Shown here: in pieces, positions 2,170 to 55,904 of the stretch
Layout of the letters: every line of letters starts with the position of its first letter
Position numbering within the stretch: the stretch's first letter is position 1
Virus record (IMG/VR): IMGVR_UViG_3300035494_000066
Source of the DNA: a virus
Lineage: Duplodnaviria > Heunggongvirae > Uroviricota > Caudoviricetes
Direction: 5' to 3' (one strand)
DNA: 64,000 nucleotides
The notes under the pieces: generated by a model
Databases searched by the model: none
Told to the model about the DNA's origin: nothing
What the model saw: the letters and a program-made list of their open reading frames with translations, nothing else
Made by a program: the position numbers and the translations under genes

Positions 2170-3782
2170 TGTAACAATCGGCTAGGTATTTTAATTCCGG
2201 AGTCGAGTTTATTCCACTGCTTTGCTTTCTTCTGCAGTACTTTACGCTCAGCATACCACCGCTCTAGTAGCCCGGGTATAATCCCAATAATGTCGAATCT
2301 AAAAATAGTTCCGTTTGCACTAATAACCCAGTTTTCGTTTGACCGGAACACTAACTTGTATATCTCAGCACCGGTTAGTTCAGTTGATCCGCCTGATTCC
2401 CAGTCGATAGTAACCGGGTTGCTATTATCGCGGTCCATAACAAACGAATATTCAATTGAACCAAACAGTCCTTCCCATGCTTCTGCAAAGTTACTACCTT
2501 TGGCCATTTTTTCAGTAATAAGTGCGTCTGTGTACGTAGGCCGGAGCTGTCCTACAATTGTTTCCGGAGCCATATTTAAGGCACGGATCGTCGACGGGTA
2601 TAGTGAGTTCAAGTCGATTGAACCAATCCACTGATGCATGCCTACTTTAGGGTGAGCAACGTATGCACCGGCTGCTTGGGTGTCTGACCCGTGGTCTTTT
2701 CTGTTCGGTACTACTAACCCTTTCTCGTGTGCTTCGTTGATAATACCTTGCTCAGTAACAGCTACAGCACCCATTGTAGTCTGCAGAAGCACAGTGTTTG
2801 CATGTGCTAGTTCGTTTGTTAGCGCTAAGAATTTTAATTTTTTGTCTAGCTTACCTAGCAGTGCTACGTCTTGGCGGTTGTAGTCGATAAACGTTTCGAA
2901 GTCGTTCTTGTATAACTGATCTAAGGTGCCATCGTATGCAACTTTACGTTCGCCTAGTTCGTACTCGCCTATTGCATCCAGGCTATACGAGTGCATCTCG
3001 TGATATGTGTACTTACGATACAATTGCATATAGTCAAGGTGCACTCGACCGATAAAGTCGTATGTAACATTCTCTGCGCCGTATCGCTCAAAGTGTCTCT
3101 TTTTAGGCATCTGGTTAAACAAACACCAACGTCGATTAACTTCCTTGCCGGCAATCAGAGTAATTCGATTTACCATATATGGTATATCGTACCCTTCTGA
3201 GTTCCACCCTGAAATAACATCAGCATCGTCAATTAGATCAAGTAATGTATTCATCATTTCTGCTTCTTGATCTTCGCGGAACAGAAATGTGTTTTCAAAC
3301 TTTGAGCATATTAACTGAGCAGTTTCCCAGTCGATCGTCGACGGGGGGATTGCTAATGTGATTAATTGATCAGTCCAGTCTAGGTATACAGTAACAGCAG
3401 TGATTTTATTAAACGGATTGTCAGTCGGAGCAAAGCCTCGTTTTAAGCAAAAGTCCGACTCGATGTCAATAAACGCAGTGTGTAATGTTGGCGAGTTTGC
3501 ATTGAGGTAGTTAGTACTTAAACACTTAAACACTGGATTAATATCCGACTCGTACAGTGTTTTATGCTTGTTTAAACGTATTTCTTTCTGGAATTCGCTG
3601 CCAGACCGGCATCGAACTTTTGTTACAGTATTACCGAATATACTTCTATATTTCCCGCGTGGATCGTCGTAATAAAAAACATATTCTGGGTCAAATTCTT
3701 TAAAAGTCCTAATTCCATCGGACCGCTCGACTACATAGATCTTTTCTGCAGATTTGTCAAAGAATGCATCAACATATGACAT
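2166..3782 (-). CDS. polB: Family B DNA polymerase, N-terminal fragment (3'-5' exonuclease plus motif A)
   Basis: FIDIESD (ExoI), GWNSEGYDIPY (ExoII), YNRQDV (ExoIII), SIDLNSLYPS (motif A); ends in the first fingers helix. Confidence 0.95.
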   Translation of the reverse strand: MSYVDAFFDKSAEKIYVVERSDGIRTFKEFDPEYVFYYDDPRGKYRSIFGNTVTKVRCRSGSEFQKEIRLNKHKTLYESDINPVFKCLSTNYLNANSPTLHTAFIDIESDFCLKRGFAPTDNPFNKITAVTVYLDWTDQLITLAIPPSTIDWETAQLICSKFENTFLFREDQEAEMMNTLLDLIDDADVISGWNSEGYDIPYMVNRITLIAGKEVNRRWCLFNQMPKKRHFERYGAENVTYDFIGRVHLDYMQLYRKYTYHEMHSYSLDAIGEYELGERKVAYDGTLDQLYKNDFETFIDYNRQDVALLGKLDKKLKFLALTNELAHANTVLLQTTMGAVAVTEQGIINEAHEKGLVVPNRKDHGSDTQAAGAYVAHPKVGMHQWIGSIDLNSLYPSTIRALNMAPETIVGQLRPTYTDALITEKMAKGSNFAEAWEGLFGSIEYSFVMDRDNSNPVTIDWESGGSTELTGAEIYKLVFRSNENWVISANGTIFRFDIIGIIPGLLERWYAERKVLQKKAKQWNKLDSGIKIPSRLLQ

Positions 3783-50166: not shown

Positions 50167-50175
50167 ATAAAAGTA

Positions 50176-50240
50176 CAGGATAGTATTCATTGGATTTGCG
50201 TATGAGGCAAAGATATGAATTGTTTGCTGTAACTATCCTA
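50176..50240 (-). ncRNA. Y-like RNA copy 1, carrying an anticodon stem-loop (CAU)
   Basis: AGGATAG-TT-ACAGCAA...TTTGC-CTCATAC-GCAAA...CTATCCTG. Confidence 0.7.
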
Positions 50241-50262
50241 AAAGTGGTGCTCGCAAGCAAGC

Positions 50263-50283: not shown

Positions 50284-50302
50284 AGTGTAGCACTTAAGCT
50301 AC

Positions 50303-50361
50303 CGGGGTAGCGGTTTCTTTAATAGTATGATAAGAAATTAAAGTGTGCTGCAACTACCCTA
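50303..50361 (-). ncRNA. Y-like RNA copy 2
   Basis: AGGGTAG-TT-GCAGCAC...CTACCCCG; inner stem CTTTAAT/ATTAAAG, loop contains TCATAC. Confidence 0.65.
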
Positions 50362-50364
50362 AAT

Positions 50365-50531: not shown

Positions 50532-50537
50532 ATAAAA

Positions 50538-50602
50538 CAGGATGGTATCGTACTAGTTTGATTAAGAGTCAAATGTATGATTGGGTTGCTGTAACCATCC
50601 TA
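50538..50602 (-). ncRNA. Y-like RNA copy 3, carrying an anticodon stem-loop (CUU, Lys-like)
   Basis: AGGATGG-TT-ACAGCAA...TTTGA-CTCTTAA-TCAAA...CCATCCTG. Confidence 0.7.
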
Positions 50603-50606
50603 AATT

Positions 50607-50856: not shown

Positions 50857-50864
50857 ATGTAAAG

Positions 50865-50922
50865 CAGGGTAACTTTCTTTTTATGCCAATATAAAAGTTT
50901 TATAGTTGCTGCAATTACCCTT
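50865..50922 (-). ncRNA. Y-like RNA copy 4
   Basis: AGGGTAA-TT-GCAGCAA...TTACCCTG; near-identical to 52011-52068. Confidence 0.65.
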
Positions 50923-50926
50923 AAAG

Positions 50927-51721: not shown

Positions 51722-51732
51722 TTAAAAAAATA

Positions 51733-51852
51733 CAGGATGAAATATTATTGCCTGCTGTTCTACCGTTGAACTAACACATACTATGTATGTGTATAGGATT
51801 CGAACCTATAACCCGCTGGTTGATTTAATATATTGTTGCTGTATTCATCCTA
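51733..51852 (-). ncRNA. YrlA-like RNA (copy 5): motif stem fused to a circularly permuted tRNA elbow
   Basis: AGGATGA-AT-ACAGCAA...T arm ATAGG-TTCGAAT-CCTAT, closed acceptor ACACATAC-ATA-GTATGTGT, D arm GTTC-AACGGTA-GAAC...TCATCCTG. Confidence 0.8.
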
Positions 51853-51951
51853 AAAGCACTATATAAAAATATTCTATTACAAAACACTTTTTTATAGTGC
51901 TTTACAGTTTTTACTGTAACTGTTTATTAAAGAGCGTGTCTAACTTTGTAA

Positions 51952-51979
51952 ATTATACTTTATTTATTTTTTCTGTCAA
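51952..51979 (-). promoter_or_regulatory. sigma70 promoter
   Basis: TTGACA-16-TATAAT upstream of the YrlA-like RNA and tRNA array. Confidence 0.75.
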
Positions 51980-52010
51980 CTAAATCGTTAACTTTTTGGT
52001 TCTATTAAAG

Positions 52011-52068
52011 CAGGGTAACTTTCTTTTCATGCCAAATATAAAAGTTTATAGTTGCTGCAATTACCCTT
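52011..52068 (-). ncRNA. Y-like RNA copy 6
   Basis: AGGGTAA-TT-GCAGCAA...TTACCCTG; near-duplicate of copy 4; own promoter. Confidence 0.65.
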
Positions 52069-52086
52069 AAACCTTATTATGTATGT

Positions 52087-52114
52087 AGTATATATTCTTT
52101 TTTACTGCTGTCAA
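52087..52114 (-). promoter_or_regulatory. sigma70 promoter
   Basis: TTGACA-16-TATACT, ending about 18 nt upstream of copy 6. Confidence 0.75.
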
Positions 52115-52146: not shown

Positions 52147-52264
52147 TGGCGGCGCGTTTAGGATTCGAACCTAAACCACTCTCTTAACAGGAGAATAATG
52201 GGTTGCTGAAACTACTCTTATACAGAGTAGACTTATTAGTGTGCTACCATTACACCAACGCGCC
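52147..52264 (-). tRNA. tRNA-Asn(GTT) with a 44-nt insert (52196-52239, motif copy 7) between the D arm and anticodon arm
   Basis: Acceptor GGCGCGT/ACGCGCC, G73, CCA, D arm, TTCTC-CTGTTAA-GAGAG, T arm; insert contains CTACTCT-GTATA-AGAGTAG-TT-TCAGCAA. Confidence 0.8.
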
Positions 52265-52528: not shown

Positions 52529-52666
52529 TGTAAATTTACCTTGTATAGCACTCTAAAACGCTTGCGTGTGCAATGTACTAGTATAGAACAGCATGTGCTA
52601 CACTATTTATTATCACGCTACATACAAGCGTTTTGGAGTGCTATGCATATGCATAGCACTTTGCTC

Positions 52667-54079
52667 CTACCAGTTGTATCGATCTTTCATCACAGCATCT
52701 TTTACAATGTTGATCGGAGTAAAGCTCTCGACATTTACTGACAAGATGCTTTTCATTAGAGCTGGACTAAATCCAGACACTAAGCATGCACCTTCTTTTG
52801 TGAACTCAACCGGAGTGTTACGTCCGTAGTCGTTGAGATTCCAATATACTAGTTTAGGAGCAGTGTAGCCTGCTTGAGTAAACCGTTTAGTAATGTCTTT
52901 GTTAACACCTCGCCCGCGAGTTGACTGATCAAACTGCATGTCACTGAAGATAATCAGAAACTCTGGCATATCTTCTTGCGGAACATTGTTCTTCACAGCA
53001 GTGTCTAAGATCAACCGATATGCTTTCTCGAGGTCGGTGTTCATCCCCCATGGGGCTTGCATAATGCTATTAAACGCCGATTTTAGAGACATTCCGCTAA
53101 CATCGCCAAATGTTGGGTTGCTATGGAATGTTAGGTACATGTCCTTGAATGCAGACTGGTTACGCTGTGCACAGTACAAGCCTAGTGACACTGCGACATC
53201 CATGCATGTCATTGACATACCACCTGCAGGGCAACCCATTGAGCCGGATACGTCGATCATTGGCAAAAACGAACGCCCGTTTTCGATCCAGTTCGGTAGC
53301 GCATTCCATTGAGCTTCTGCAACATCAGAGTCGCCGTAACGAATTGATCGAAGAATATCGTACGGATACACTGCAGCTGCGTTAATCTTAGCAGTTCCGT
53401 CGTTCTTTACCAGTGACTCGCGATACTTAGCGTAACGTTGTTCGTCGTTGCGAGAAAACGCTTTTTGGTACCGAGCAGCAGCTACAGACGGAACGTGATT
53501 GTAGTCAATCTCACTCCACTTTCTTGCACACATGTCTTGCTCGACTACAGTTGACAGTGATGCAAGCATTTTGCGATACTCACGAGGAGTAAGTCCCATG
53601 TGTGTGCGTAGTTTAGTTGCTAGTGCTTTTTTGGCAGACTTTTCACGTGGAGCCCACTTAGCTGCTAGACCGTTACCGTTACGAAGCTCTGCGCTATACA
53701 TCTCTAGTGCTTCGTGTTCAATCGGTGTTCCTACGAATGCAAGCAAGTCGTCGAATCGGCCTAGTTCTGGAATTTTAGCTAAAACGCGCCGTGCGTTTAC
53801 AAAGTCTGCATTAGCAAACCATTTCATCATATCGCGGAACAGCTTTCGCTCACCCATTCCTTCGCGGGCGTCGCGAGCATATAATGCAACTCGGACAGCA
53901 AGGTCTAGATCTTCGGAAACTGCTCGTTGGAACAGCGGAACGATGTCCTTACCGCGTGATGCACCTACTGCAAAAAACAAGTCGACAACTGAATTCAGTG
54001 AAGACTTTTTAATTTTTGCTCCGTTAAGGGTGGTAGTTTTATTGGATTCTTTTTTGAGGCCTTTAACTAGTGTATTCAT
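52667..54079 (-). CDS. DUF2828-family TROVE-like/vWA protein (Ro60-like candidate)
   Basis: YARDAREGMGER, GRFDDL, LAAKWAPRE, VPSVA, YPYDI, QWNAL, MIDVSGSM (MIDAS), TFHSNP, WGMNTD, IFSDMQFD, VYWNL, VSGFSP. Confidence 0.82.
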   Translation of the reverse strand: MNTLVKGLKKESNKTTTLNGAKIKKSSLNSVVDLFFAVGASRGKDIVPLFQRAVSEDLDLAVRVALYARDAREGMGERKLFRDMMKWFANADFVNARRVLAKIPELGRFDDLLAFVGTPIEHEALEMYSAELRNGNGLAAKWAPREKSAKKALATKLRTHMGLTPREYRKMLASLSTVVEQDMCARKWSEIDYNHVPSVAAARYQKAFSRNDEQRYAKYRESLVKNDGTAKINAAAVYPYDILRSIRYGDSDVAEAQWNALPNWIENGRSFLPMIDVSGSMGCPAGGMSMTCMDVAVSLGLYCAQRNQSAFKDMYLTFHSNPTFGDVSGMSLKSAFNSIMQAPWGMNTDLEKAYRLILDTAVKNNVPQEDMPEFLIIFSDMQFDQSTRGRGVNKDITKRFTQAGYTAPKLVYWNLNDYGRNTPVEFTKEGACLVSGFSPALMKSILSVNVESFTPINIVKDAVMKDRYNW

Positions 54080-54089
54080 TGATAATCTC

Positions 54090-54131
54090 CAGAATGATTT
54101 AAATTGAGTTATTAAGTGCTGAACTCATTCT
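54090..54131 (-). promoter_or_regulatory. Motif copy 8 in the 5' UTR of the TROVE-like gene, abutting its SD
   Basis: AGAATGA-GT-TCAGCAC...TCATTCTG-GAGA-TTATCA-ATG. Confidence 0.75.
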
Positions 54132-54143
54132 TAATGTTAGTGT

Positions 54144-54171
54144 ATTGTACACGACTTGTTGTTAGTGTCAA
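54144..54171 (-). promoter_or_regulatory. sigma70 promoter of the TROVE-like gene
   Basis: TTGACA-16-TACAAT. Confidence 0.75.
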
Positions 54172-55103: not shown

Positions 55104-55904
55104 TTATGCACTATTTTTTAAGACATAAAAATCCTTCTGTCCTCGCCGGCGAGGTCCTGATTCTCCACGACCGACAAAATCGGCGTAATTGTAGTATGTA
55201 ACAATTTCCCAACCTTGGTCTGCGAATATGTTTTTTAATGCATTGCGAGACGGAATAAATCCTAGTGTTTGCGAAGCGTCTGAGGTAGTAAAAGACTTAA
55301 ACGCCAACGGATCAGTTGTTGAGTACTCGACTTGCATGTGCCCCGGTTCGCAGTAATCGTCGACAACTGTGGTTTCAAAGAATAAGTATTTTGGTTTAAG
55401 CCGGTCTCTTATAAATTTAAGGACTTCAACACCGTTTTGCAAATAGTAAAACACGTCTAGGAACATAACAACGTCGTATTGTTTGTCACAGTGAGAATGC
55501 ATGTATTCGTCTATAGATACATTTTGGGTCGAGATCTTTCCGGGCGCTCGTATTTTTGCATATTCTTTTGCTAGATAATATCGTTTAGTAGACGGCTCGA
55601 TGCCGTCTACTAGTTGCGCACCGTTAAGGATAGACCAAACTGCGTAAAAGTTGAGGTTTGTGCCGATTTCAAAAACGGTTTGATTAGTTAAAAAGTGCTT
55701 GTGCAAATGGTAGTATAGGTAGTACCGAGCTATCCAGCACTCTGGAAAAGCCCAACTCGGAGGGTGGTCAAAGATAGTATCTGCAGAACGGGTAGGGTTG
55801 TCGAACAACTTGTTAAATATGTACTCGATATAAGGCGAGTCTCGCAACGTAAGTTCAGTCCGGAGTGCATCTAGTTTGCTAAAGTCGAGATTAATTGAAT
55901 TCAT
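55104..55904 (-). CDS. Class I SAM-dependent methyltransferase (CmoB/DUF1698-like)
   Basis: VFEIGTNLNFYA...VDGIEP...YDVVMFLDVFYYL. Confidence 0.7.
   Translation of the reverse strand: MNSINLDFSKLDALRTELTLRDSPYIEYIFNKLFDNPTRSADTIFDHPPSWAFPECWIARYYLYYHLHKHFLTNQTVFEIGTNLNFYAVWSILNGAQLVDGIEPSTKRYYLAKEYAKIRAPGKISTQNVSIDEYMHSHCDKQYDVVMFLDVFYYLQNGVEVLKFIRDRLKPKYLFFETTVVDDYCEPGHMQVEYSTTDPLAFKSFTTSDASQTLGFIPSRNALKNIFADQGWEIVTYYNYADFVGRGESGPRRRGQKDFYVLKNSA

What the first reader, a model, noticed from the sequence alone, without database searches (positions are those of the whole stretch)
54079..54171. The TROVE-like gene carries the RNA motif in its own 5' UTR, adjoining the ribosome-binding site
Seen: the predicted transcript starts near 54137, the motif spans 54131-54090, and its last G begins the SD GGAGA, which ends 6 nt before the ATG. 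Inference: translational autoregulation, in which free protein binds its mRNA when the small RNAs are saturated, as ribosomal proteins do. This ties the motif to this specific protein.
Basis: partly seen in the sequence, partly recalled or inferred. Interest (0 to 1): 0.72.

Follow-up and report, generated by a model that had tools for sequence, protein, structure and literature searches.

The report
Partner-RNA handle in Ro60-like gene leader
A giant phage's gene for a Ro60-shaped RNA-binding protein starts with a stripped-down copy of the docking stem carried by the phage's Y-RNA-like small RNAs, set against the ribosome-binding site and kept there in over 100 related phage contigs, so the protein probably binds and limits its own message, though no binding has been measured.

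Summary
Downstream of a near-consensus promoter (TTGACA-16-TACAAT, 54171-54144), the 58-nt leader of gene 52667-54079 (-) holds a 7-bp helix, AGAAUGA (54131-54125) with UCAUUCU (54097-54091). The 5' strand is followed by G-UUCAGCAC. The 3' strand is followed by G54090, which is the first base of the Shine-Dalgarno GGAGA, 6 nt before the AUG.

The same module sits on six small RNAs and one tRNA-like RNA downstream. A covariance model built only from other phages finds seven matches in the whole 302-kb genome: the six sRNAs and this leader (E about 0.01).

The protein (DUF2828+DUF7788) is predicted to fold like Ro60. Its top 13 PDB matches are all Ro60/TROVE.

Of 133 distinct homologous leaders, 111 carry the module ending 8-32 nt before the AUG. 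The closest reachable relative (59% identity) keeps the same minimal helix and the same CUG-GAGA junction. Felixounavirus, KVP40, Ci1, KP13-26 and a mycobacteriophage lack it.

The link between motif and protein is well supported. Translational autorepression is plausible but unproven. A merely co-transcribed upstream Y-like RNA, as in M. smegmatis and phage phiLo, is a serious rival.

This scan has already noted the same arrangement on several other phage genomes. I found no paper describing it.

The parts
54166..54171 (-). -35 hexamer TTGACA of the gene's own promoter
   Evidence: 11/12 match to consensus with a 16-nt spacer. It is one of four near-consensus promoters in this region (54171, 52300, 52114, 51979).
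54144..54149 (-). -10 hexamer TACAAT; predicted transcript start about 54138-54137
   Evidence: The start site is inferred from the usual spacing of about 7 nt, not measured.
54125..54131 (-). 5' strand of the leader helix, AGAAUGA
   Evidence: The A-U, G-C and U-A pairs that never vary in the family are kept.
54116..54124 (-). Conserved single-stranded tract G-UUCAGCAC (family consensus UW-CAGCAAC)
   Evidence: CAGCA is invariant in the six window sRNAs and in A4.
54098..54115 (-). 18-nt A/U-rich loop with no inner hairpin or tRNA-like part (a 'cargo-less' module)
   Evidence: The loop differs in length and sequence from that of L088, while the flanks are identical.
54091..54097 (-). 3' strand of the leader helix, UCAUUCU
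54086..54090 (-). Shine-Dalgarno GGAGA; its first G (54090) is the conserved G that follows the helix (..YCYG) in the whole family
   Evidence: The same overlap occurs in 10 distinct leaders: window, L004, L007, L009, L045, L066, L081, L088, L096, L128.
52667..54079 (-). Gene for a 470-aa Ro60-like protein (DUF2828 + DUF7788/vWA with a DxSxS MIDAS motif); AUG at 54079-54077
   Evidence: Pfam. PHROG 850 'RNA-binding protein'. AlphaFold2 model with pLDDT 78.9. Top 13 Foldseek PDB matches are all Ro60/TROVE.
52008..52071 (-). Y-like small RNA with the same module (own promoter at 52114)
   Evidence: 72.8 bits.
52150..52264 (-). tRNA-shaped RNA carrying the module as a closed hairpin (CUACUCUG-uau-AAGAGUAG-UUUCAGCAAC)
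   Evidence: Rfam tRNA 44.8 bits. Citrobacter phage Ci1 has a counterpart annotated tRNA-Pseudo.
51730..51855 (-). YrlA-like RNA: the module stem encloses a permuted tRNA-like body
   Evidence: Rfam YrlA RF02553, 32.3 bits, below the gathering score of 69. R1 53.3 bits.
50862..50925 (-). Y-like small RNA inside the tRNA array
   Evidence: 68.3 bits.
50535..50605 (-). Y-like small RNA inside the tRNA array
   Evidence: 70.4 bits.
50300..50364 (-). Y-like small RNA inside the tRNA array
   Evidence: 65.8 bits.
50173..50243 (-). Y-like small RNA inside the tRNA array
   Evidence: 65.8 bits.

Best explanation
The leader element is a minimal, cargo-less copy of the docking stem ('handle') shared by this jumbo phage's Y-RNA-like small RNAs. 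The handle is a 7-bp helix with UUCAGCA(A)C after its 5' strand and a G after its 3' strand. It occupies the position of the Ro-binding terminal stem of YrlA.

**Proposed mechanism.** The Ro60-like protein encoded just downstream binds this handle on its own mRNA. The last base of the handle is the first base of the Shine-Dalgarno sequence, and the whole module lies inside the region a 30S subunit must occupy. Bound protein would therefore hinder initiation, and perhaps change mRNA decay. This gives negative feedback: when the free small RNAs are saturated, surplus protein shuts off its own synthesis. The logic is that of ribosomal-protein and T4 RegA/gp32 operators.

**Shown here.**
- The module is present.
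- It resembles the sRNA handles.
- It is unique in the genome outside the sRNAs.
- The protein is predicted to fold like Ro60.
- The module is conserved in front of homologous genes.

**Inferred.** That the protein binds the handle, that binding occurs on the mRNA, and that it represses translation.
For: 1. **Similarity to the sRNA handles.** Models that never saw the leader rank it first after the sRNAs: R1 19.7 bits, E 0.033 and R2 25.7 bits, E 0.005. It is the only other match in 302.5 kb.
2. **The helix is real.** In 54 distinct family members 92.6% of cells pair and 6 of 8 pairs show double changes. The covariation score is 0.496 against 0.138 shuffled (0/500), and slid controls pair at 35-48%. 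A plain MAFFT alignment of 10 minimal leaders gives 97.1% paired with 4 of 7 pairs compensatory.
3. **Conservation at the gene.** 111 of 133 distinct homologous leaders have the module ending 8-32 nt before the AUG. Of 124 modules directly followed by an ORF of at least 100 aa, 120 precede the Ro60-like gene. There are 437 modules on the gene strand against 39 on the other strand.
4. **The window's own lineage.** In L088 (59% protein identity) the small RNAs also lie downstream of the gene, ending in a tRNA-Met as in the window. Even so, the leader keeps CAUUAAGAAUGA and UCAUUCUGGAGAU unchanged around a loop that differs in length and sequence.
5. **The junction recurs.** The exact overlap of the handle's G with the Shine-Dalgarno occurs in 10 leaders with different helix sequences. 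The 10 cargo-less leaders all end 8-13 nt from the AUG.
6. **Positional equivalence to YrlA.** The handle aligns with the 5'/3' terminal stem of the Rfam YrlA model.
7. **Fold.** The protein model matches Ro60 over its full length: 9kop, 1yvr, 2i91, 9l5y, 2nvo, E 3.5e-9 to 2e-6, TM 0.5-0.6.
8. **Weaker site.** SD-abutting leader copies score lower than free sRNAs of the same locus, for example 25.7 against 37.6-60.8 bits in the window. This fits a weaker, second-choice site.
Against: - No binding, toeprint or reporter data exist.
- The hairpin alone is weak (-5.3 kcal/mol, z +1.05).
- The score of the window copy alone is modest.
- In roughly half of the homologous leaders the Shine-Dalgarno starts 10-21 nt after the handle. 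Occlusion there is less obvious.
- In 16 leaders the upstream element is long (more than 60 nt between the strands), mostly a full tRNA-like Y RNA. In 70 of 109 leaders it is the last unit of a same-strand array. That looks like ordinary co-transcription of Y RNAs with the Ro gene.
- Several lineages of the same protein family have no leader module: Felixounavirus JH2, KVP40, Ci1, KP13-26 and mycobacteriophage MsGreen.
- The lower model scores of leader copies partly reflect the missing loop positions, not necessarily lower affinity.
Confidence: 0.45

Rival explanations
1. The leader module is simply one more Y-like RNA gene placed upstream of, and co-transcribed with, the Ro60-like gene. It is cut out of the precursor, or loaded in cis by the nascent protein. 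It ensures joint expression of protein and RNA partner and has no feedback role.
For: - Y RNAs encoded upstream of the Ro gene and processed from one precursor are documented in M. smegmatis and D. radiodurans (PMC4201824). Yrl1 and Yrl2 lie upstream of the phiLo Ro60 gene (PMC12135203).
- In the related loci 70 of 109 leader copies follow another module within 40 nt.
- Sixteen leader elements are long, mostly tRNA-like Y RNAs.
- In 25 loci a strong promoter ends mostly 6-7 nt before the module, as for an sRNA gene.
Against: - The window copy, and 9 others, have only a 12-29-nt A/U-rich interior with no effector part.
- In the window and in L088 the functional-looking small RNAs lie downstream, yet the stripped copy stays at the ribosome-binding site.
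- In the SD-overlapping leaders the usual ..CCUG-UU tail of free sRNAs is replaced by the Shine-Dalgarno. Release of the RNA would then cut into the ribosome-binding site.
Confidence: 0.3
2. The hairpin works without the Ro60-like protein, as a 5'-terminal stabiliser of the mRNA or a recognition site for a host or phage RNase that also matures the small RNAs.
For: The module sits at or near the 5' end of the predicted transcript. The same ..CCUG-UU end recurs on the sRNAs that lie between tRNAs and must be processed.
Against: - The module is found almost only beside genes of this protein family and on their strand.
- It corresponds in position to the Ro-binding stem of YrlA.
- A weak 7-bp A/U-rich helix with 6-7 unpaired 5' nucleotides would be a poor stabiliser.
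Confidence: 0.12
3. The protein binds the leader, but the effect is positive. It protects the message or helps ribosome loading, so that protein and partner RNAs rise together.
For: The binding-site evidence is the same as for the main explanation. In about half of the leaders the Shine-Dalgarno lies 10-21 nt clear of the handle.
Against: In the window the handle and the Shine-Dalgarno share a base, which favours competition with the ribosome. I know of no precedent for activation by Ro60-family proteins (own knowledge, and searches).
Confidence: 0.1
4. The match is a chance resemblance or a decaying relic of a duplicated small-RNA gene.
For: The E-value of the single copy is modest (0.005-0.03) and its folding energy is unremarkable.
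Against: - It is conserved at the same place in 111 of 133 leaders.
- The flanks are identical in a 59%-identical relative.
- Compensatory changes occur in the helix.
- It is the only extra match in the genome.
Confidence: 0.02

Closest known systems
Ro60/Rsr with Y RNAs encoded beside its gene (M. smegmatis YrlA/YrlB, D. radiodurans Yrn1/Yrn2, Thermus phage phiLo Yrl1/Yrl2; Rfam RF02553; PMC4201824, PMC12135203)
   Same: - Ring protein of Ro60 fold with a vWA/MIDAS domain.
- Partner RNAs on the same strand next to the gene, some with a tRNA-like body.
- An RNA element directly upstream of the gene, in the same transcription unit.
   Different: - The protein matches DUF2828/DUF7788, not Pfam TROVE.
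- The handle is AGRRUNN + UW-CAGCAAC ... CCUG, not the GNCGAAN0-1G / CGAA motif.
- The leader copy has no effector part and shares a base with the Shine-Dalgarno.
- None of the papers I could search proposes a regulatory role for an upstream Y RNA.
Autogenous translational operators that mimic the protein's main RNA ligand (E. coli ribosomal proteins S8, L1, S15, L20; threonyl-tRNA synthetase operator; T4 RegA and gp32; MS2 coat protein). Cited from established knowledge.
   Same: - A reduced copy of the primary RNA target sits in the regulator's own leader, at or next to the ribosome-binding site.
- It matches the consensus less well than the primary targets do.
- It is conserved among homologous leaders.
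   Different: - Binding and repression have not been shown here.
- The distance to the Shine-Dalgarno varies from 0 to 21 nt across relatives.
- In many relatives the 'operator' is a full-size partner RNA.
Felixounavirus Bas63 gp130, a Ro60-like protein reported to counter the ppl defence system (preprint 10.1101/2024.10.10.617714)
   Same: By inference it belongs to the same phage protein family. Bas63 itself was not searched, but other Felixounavirus homologues are 44-45% identical over 97% of the window protein. The gene lies next to a tRNA cluster, and the authors suspect Y RNAs among the tRNA genes.
   Different: The Felixounavirus leader examined here (JH2) has no module. The preprint discusses no handle motif and no leader element.

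Membership tests
Ro60 / TROVE proteins | Ring of helical repeats followed by a von Willebrand A domain (overall Ro60 fold) | tested here: met
   The AlphaFold2 model has pLDDT 78.9. The top 13 Foldseek PDB matches are all Ro60/TROVE, with E 3.5e-9 to 2e-6, probability 1.0 and TM 0.48-0.59.
Ro60 / TROVE proteins | MIDAS motif DxSxS in the vWA domain | tested here: met
   D276, S278 and S280 are invariant in 20 homologues. A profile search of PDB aligns residues 268-342 to Ro60 residues 366-439, weakly (E 0.12).
Ro60 / TROVE proteins | Sequence match to the Pfam TROVE domain | tested here: not met
   Pfam reports only DUF2828 (2.2e-26) and DUF7788 (2.6e-46). NCBIfam gives no match.
Ro60 / TROVE proteins | Binds Y RNAs through their terminal stem | not testable with these tools
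   The only evidence is genomic association: 437 modules on the gene strand against 39 on the other.
Y RNA / YrlA (Rfam RF02553), applied to the leader element | Reaches the Rfam gathering score | tested here: not met
   No Rfam match covers the leader at E <= 5. Even the YrlA-like sRNA at 51731-51851 scores 32.3 bits against a gathering score of 69.
Y RNA / YrlA (Rfam RF02553), applied to the leader element | GNCGAAN0-1G motif in the 5' strand of the terminal stem | tested here: not met
   The leader has AAGAAUGA-G-UUCAGCAC. It corresponds in position to the YrlA stem but has a different sequence (PMC4201824).
Y RNA / YrlA (Rfam RF02553), applied to the leader element | Second module (tRNA-like domain or effector loop) beyond the Ro-binding stem | tested here: not met
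   The leader has an 18-nt A/U-rich loop only.
Y RNA / YrlA (Rfam RF02553), applied to the leader element | Encoded next to the Ro60 gene on the same strand | tested here: met
   207 of 208 R1 matches in related loci lie on the gene strand.
Autogenous translational operators by RNA mimicry | Operator resembles the regulator's primary RNA target | tested here: met
   Independent models rank the leader next after the small RNAs.
Autogenous translational operators by RNA mimicry | Operator overlaps or abuts the ribosome-binding site | tested here: met
   In the window G54090 is shared by the handle and the Shine-Dalgarno. Among relatives the SD starts 0-6 nt after the handle in 54 of 111 leaders and 8-21 nt after it in 56; one has none.
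Autogenous translational operators by RNA mimicry | Protein binds the operator and lowers its own translation | not testable with these tools
   This needs binding assays, toeprinting and reporter fusions.
Y RNA genes co-transcribed upstream of the Ro gene | A stable small RNA is released from the leader | tested here: inconclusive
   Metatranscriptome contigs of a relative that differs at about 4% of bases cover the gene and bridge the leader, but contigs show no RNA ends and DNA carry-over cannot be excluded.

The most novel reading that the evidence does not exclude
Phage Ro60-like proteins control their own synthesis through a Y-RNA-handle mimic in their mRNA leader. This would be the first autogenous regulatory circuit described for the Ro60 family. 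It would define an undescribed, widespread class of cis-regulatory RNA, with over 100 distinct leaders in uncultivated phages plus Aeromonas phage LAh_6. That RNA would also give the minimal binding site of this protein family.
Probability: 0.45. Interest if true: 0.72.

Novelty: new variant of a known kind. Interest (0 to 1): 0.6.

Why it matters
Ro60 and Y RNAs are studied in RNA quality control, autoimmunity and now phage counter-defence, but how Ro60 levels are matched to their RNA partners is not known.

A cargo-less handle at the ribosome-binding site would give three things:
- a simple, testable feedback circuit;
- the minimal RNA determinant recognised by the large DUF2828 branch of the family;
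- a sequence signature for finding these proteins' partner RNAs in phage genomes, where many are currently mis-annotated as pseudo-tRNAs or overlapped by over-extended CDS calls.

Tried and rejected
- **The look-up of encoding contigs was closed.** The closest homologues (P0002-P0019, 56-69% identity, almost all held only in Logan/ENA) could not be fetched. L088 at 59% is the closest leader examined.
- **Single-protein scan of IMG/VR found no relative.** An alignment-based scan was needed.
- **Thermodynamic stability of the leader gave no support.** The z-score is +1.05.
- **Rfam has no family for the leader.** No match at the gathering score or at E <= 5.
- **A loose pattern search has about ten background hits in the window.** Helix plus CAGCA alone is therefore not evidence. 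I replaced it with covariance models.
- **My first leader parser missed true cases and picked some spurious helices.** It was rewritten. Its strict count of 111/133 still misses some leaders that carry the module by eye (L043, L046, L089, L120, L127).
- **RNA evidence is uninformative.** Three metatranscriptome runs from one study hold contigs of a relative differing at about 4% of bases. They cover the gene and the tRNA array, and one contig bridges 52965-54221 across the promoter. Contigs give no transcript ends, and DNA carry-over cannot be excluded. I make no claim of expression or habitat from them.
- **No regulon.** A search for the module before other genes of this genome found none.
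- **Literature searches** for DUF2828, and for Ro60 with autoregulation, found nothing relevant. One review (PMC10870794) is not held.

Full report
**What is there.** The window is part of a 302.5-kb virus record, a jumbo phage. Gene 52667-54079 on the minus strand encodes a 470-aa protein with Pfam DUF2828 and DUF7788 and PHROG 850 'RNA-binding protein'. Right after the stop codon of the upstream YqeY-like gene lies a near-consensus promoter: TTGACA 54171-54166, a 16-nt spacer, and TACAAT 54149-54144. This predicts a transcript start at about 54138-54137.

The leader then reads, 5' to 3':
- AGAAUGA (54131-54125);
- G, then UUCAGCAC (54123-54116);
- an 18-nt A/U-rich loop;
- UCAUUCU (54097-54091);
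- G54090, which is the first base of GGAGA (54090-54086);
- six bases;
- AUG (54079).

Every coordinate in the finding is correct. The start codon matches residue 1 of 20 aligned homologues.

**The motif elsewhere in the window.** Downstream of the gene, inside and before a ten-tRNA array, the same module occurs on six small RNAs and, as a closed hairpin, inside a tRNA-shaped RNA. The module is a 7-8-bp purine-rich 5' strand, then UW-CAGCAAC, a variable interior, the complementary strand and a G. One of the small RNAs (51730-51855) encloses a permuted tRNA-like body. It is a weak match to Rfam YrlA (32.3 bits against a gathering score of 69). The module aligns with YrlA's terminal stem, which holds the motif proposed to mediate Rsr binding (PMC4201824).

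**Is the leader copy more than chance?**
- Alone the hairpin is weak (-5.3 kcal/mol, z +1.05).
- A loose pattern has background hits.
- A covariance model built from the six small RNAs without the leader ranks the leader as the best other match in the window: 19.7 bits, E 0.033, against 12.8 bits for the next.
- A second model, built only from 58 elements of other phages, scores it 25.7 bits, E 0.005.
- In the whole genome that second model finds exactly seven matches at E <= 1: the six small RNAs and the leader.

**The protein.** An AlphaFold2 model (pLDDT 78.9) matches Ro60/TROVE structures in all of its top 13 PDB hits. These are 9kop, 1yvr, 2i91, 9l5y from Thermus phage phiLo, and 2nvo, with E 3.5e-9 to 2e-6 and TM 0.5-0.6. 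The DxSxS MIDAS motif is invariant. By sequence it is not a Pfam TROVE member. Mycobacteriophage 'Ro-like RNA binding protein' (MsGreen gp54) has the same two Pfam domains. A weak YrlA match lies downstream of that gene.

**Homologous leaders.** The family is large: more than 7,600 proteins and 711 phage records. I fetched 80 IMG/VR loci and 80 metagenome loci, mostly 45-50% identical.
- The window-derived model gave 208 matches in 81 loci (Ci1 plus the 80 IMG/VR loci). 207 were on the gene's strand, and very many ended just before the gene.
- Of 133 distinct leaders, 111 pass a strict automated definition with the conserved G 8-32 nt before the AUG. A few more carry the module by eye.
- Across 155 loci there are 437 modules on the gene strand and 39 on the other. 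Of 124 modules followed within 35 nt by an ORF of at least 100 aa, 120 precede the Ro60-like gene.
- The helix is supported by covariation. In the model-fitted alignment 92.6% of cells pair, 6 of 8 pairs show double changes, and the score is 0.496 against 0.138 shuffled. In a plain MAFFT alignment of ten minimal leaders 97.1% pair and 4 of 7 pairs are compensatory, against 20-44% for slid controls.

**Three kinds of leader element.**
- Ten are cargo-less (interior of 30 nt or less), like the window. They end 8-13 nt from the AUG.
- 85 carry an inner hairpin.
- 16 are long (more than 60 nt between the strands); most are tRNA-like RNAs.

The Shine-Dalgarno starts at the conserved G in 10 leaders with different helix sequences. 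It starts within 6 nt in 54 of 111, and 8-21 nt further on in 56.

In 25 of 109 leaders a strong promoter ends mostly 6-7 nt before the module. In 70 the module follows another module of a same-strand array.

**The window's own lineage.** L088 (59% identity) has its small RNAs downstream of the gene, ending at a tRNA-Met as in the window. Its leader is CAUUAAGAAUGA-auuCCGCAUU-short loop-UCAUUCUGGAGAU. The flanks are identical to the window's, and the loop differs in length and sequence. So the stripped copy is kept at the ribosome-binding site even where the array lies elsewhere.

**Where it is absent.** No leader module occurs in Citrobacter phage Ci1, Felixounavirus JH2, KVP40, Klebsiella phage KP13-26 or mycobacteriophage MsGreen. 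Ci1, KP13-26 and MsGreen have handle-bearing or weakly matching RNAs downstream of the gene. JH2 has only an 18.7-bit match there, and KVP40 has none. Aeromonas phage LAh_6, a cultivated phage, has a seven-unit array that includes a leader copy.

**Interpretation.** The evidence shows a conserved cis element that is a reduced copy of the partner-RNA handle of a Ro60-like protein. That the protein binds it is inferred from three things: the genomic association, the positional equivalence to the YrlA stem, and the fold.

Negative translational feedback fits the window best. The handle and the Shine-Dalgarno share a base, the copy carries no cargo, it matches the consensus less well than the free RNAs, and it persists apart from the array.

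The main rival is the arrangement already documented in M. smegmatis, D. radiodurans and phage phiLo, where Y RNAs are simply encoded upstream of the Ro gene and, in M. smegmatis, processed from one precursor (PMC4201824, PMC12135203). The many array-type and tRNA-like leaders among relatives fit that picture. The two readings are not exclusive, because a protein bound to an unprocessed precursor would still sit on the initiation region.

**Literature.** I found no paper describing the CAGCAA handle, the DUF2828-type ribonucleoprotein, or a leader copy. The nearest is a preprint noting that Bas63 gp130 looks like Ro60 and may use tRNA-like Y RNAs.

**Earlier notes of this scan.** The same leader arrangement has been recorded on several other phage genomes, and the small RNAs have been recorded on this window. 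These notes agree with my results, but I did not use them as evidence.

**RNA data.** Metatranscriptome contigs of a relative differing at about 4% of bases cover the gene and bridge the leader. They give no transcript ends.

Noticed in passing
window 52542-52647 (-): A long hairpin lies between the stop codon of the Ro60-like gene and the next small ORF. Its arms are 28 nt and 86% complementary, with 50 nt between them. Its only Rfam matches are weak microRNA-precursor hits, best 30.9 bits. It could be a terminator or another structured RNA.
   Followed up: no
L086 (Aeromonas phage LAh_6, MK838112.1) 2852-2970: The annotated CDS LAh6_126 starts at a TTG (L086:2884) that lies over two module RNAs (R2 matches at 2852-2908 and 2913-2970). 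The protein match begins at 3001, so the deposited start is probably too far upstream. The seven-unit RNA array at 1995-2970 is not annotated.
   Followed up: partly
L085 (Vibrio phage KVP40) about 2940-2976: The KVP40 leader has the single-stranded part of the motif (UACAGCAA) a few bases before its Shine-Dalgarno, with no matching helix. This could be a remnant or a different way of binding.
   Followed up: no
L081 7252-7321: A strong module (50.3 bits) is followed 14 nt later by a 178-aa ORF that is not the Ro60-like gene. This is one of only four such cases and a possible second gene under the same leader.
   Followed up: no
L001 (Citrobacter phage Ci1) 5860-6260: Downstream of the Ci1 homologue lie two tRNA-shaped RNAs and a YrlA-like RNA with handle variants (UAUUCAGCAUC, CUACUGCAUC). 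One is deposited as 'tRNA-Pseudo-AAC'.
   Followed up: partly
window 51856-51945 (-): The consensus promoter at 51979 drives about 90 nt of RNA before the YrlA-like element. This stretch includes a 21-nt inverted repeat (arms 51853-51873 and 51883-51903) with no known match.
   Followed up: no
window 51979, 52114, 52300, 54171 (-): Four promoters with the shared form (t)aGTTGACA-16 nt-TAnAnT each stand directly before an RNA gene or the Ro60-like gene. They may form one co-regulated early set.
   Followed up: no
window 55916-57292 and 55104-55904 (-): Upstream neighbours are a tryptophan-halogenase-family protein (3e-80) and a methyltransferase, an unusual pair next to a tRNA/Y-RNA region.
   Followed up: no
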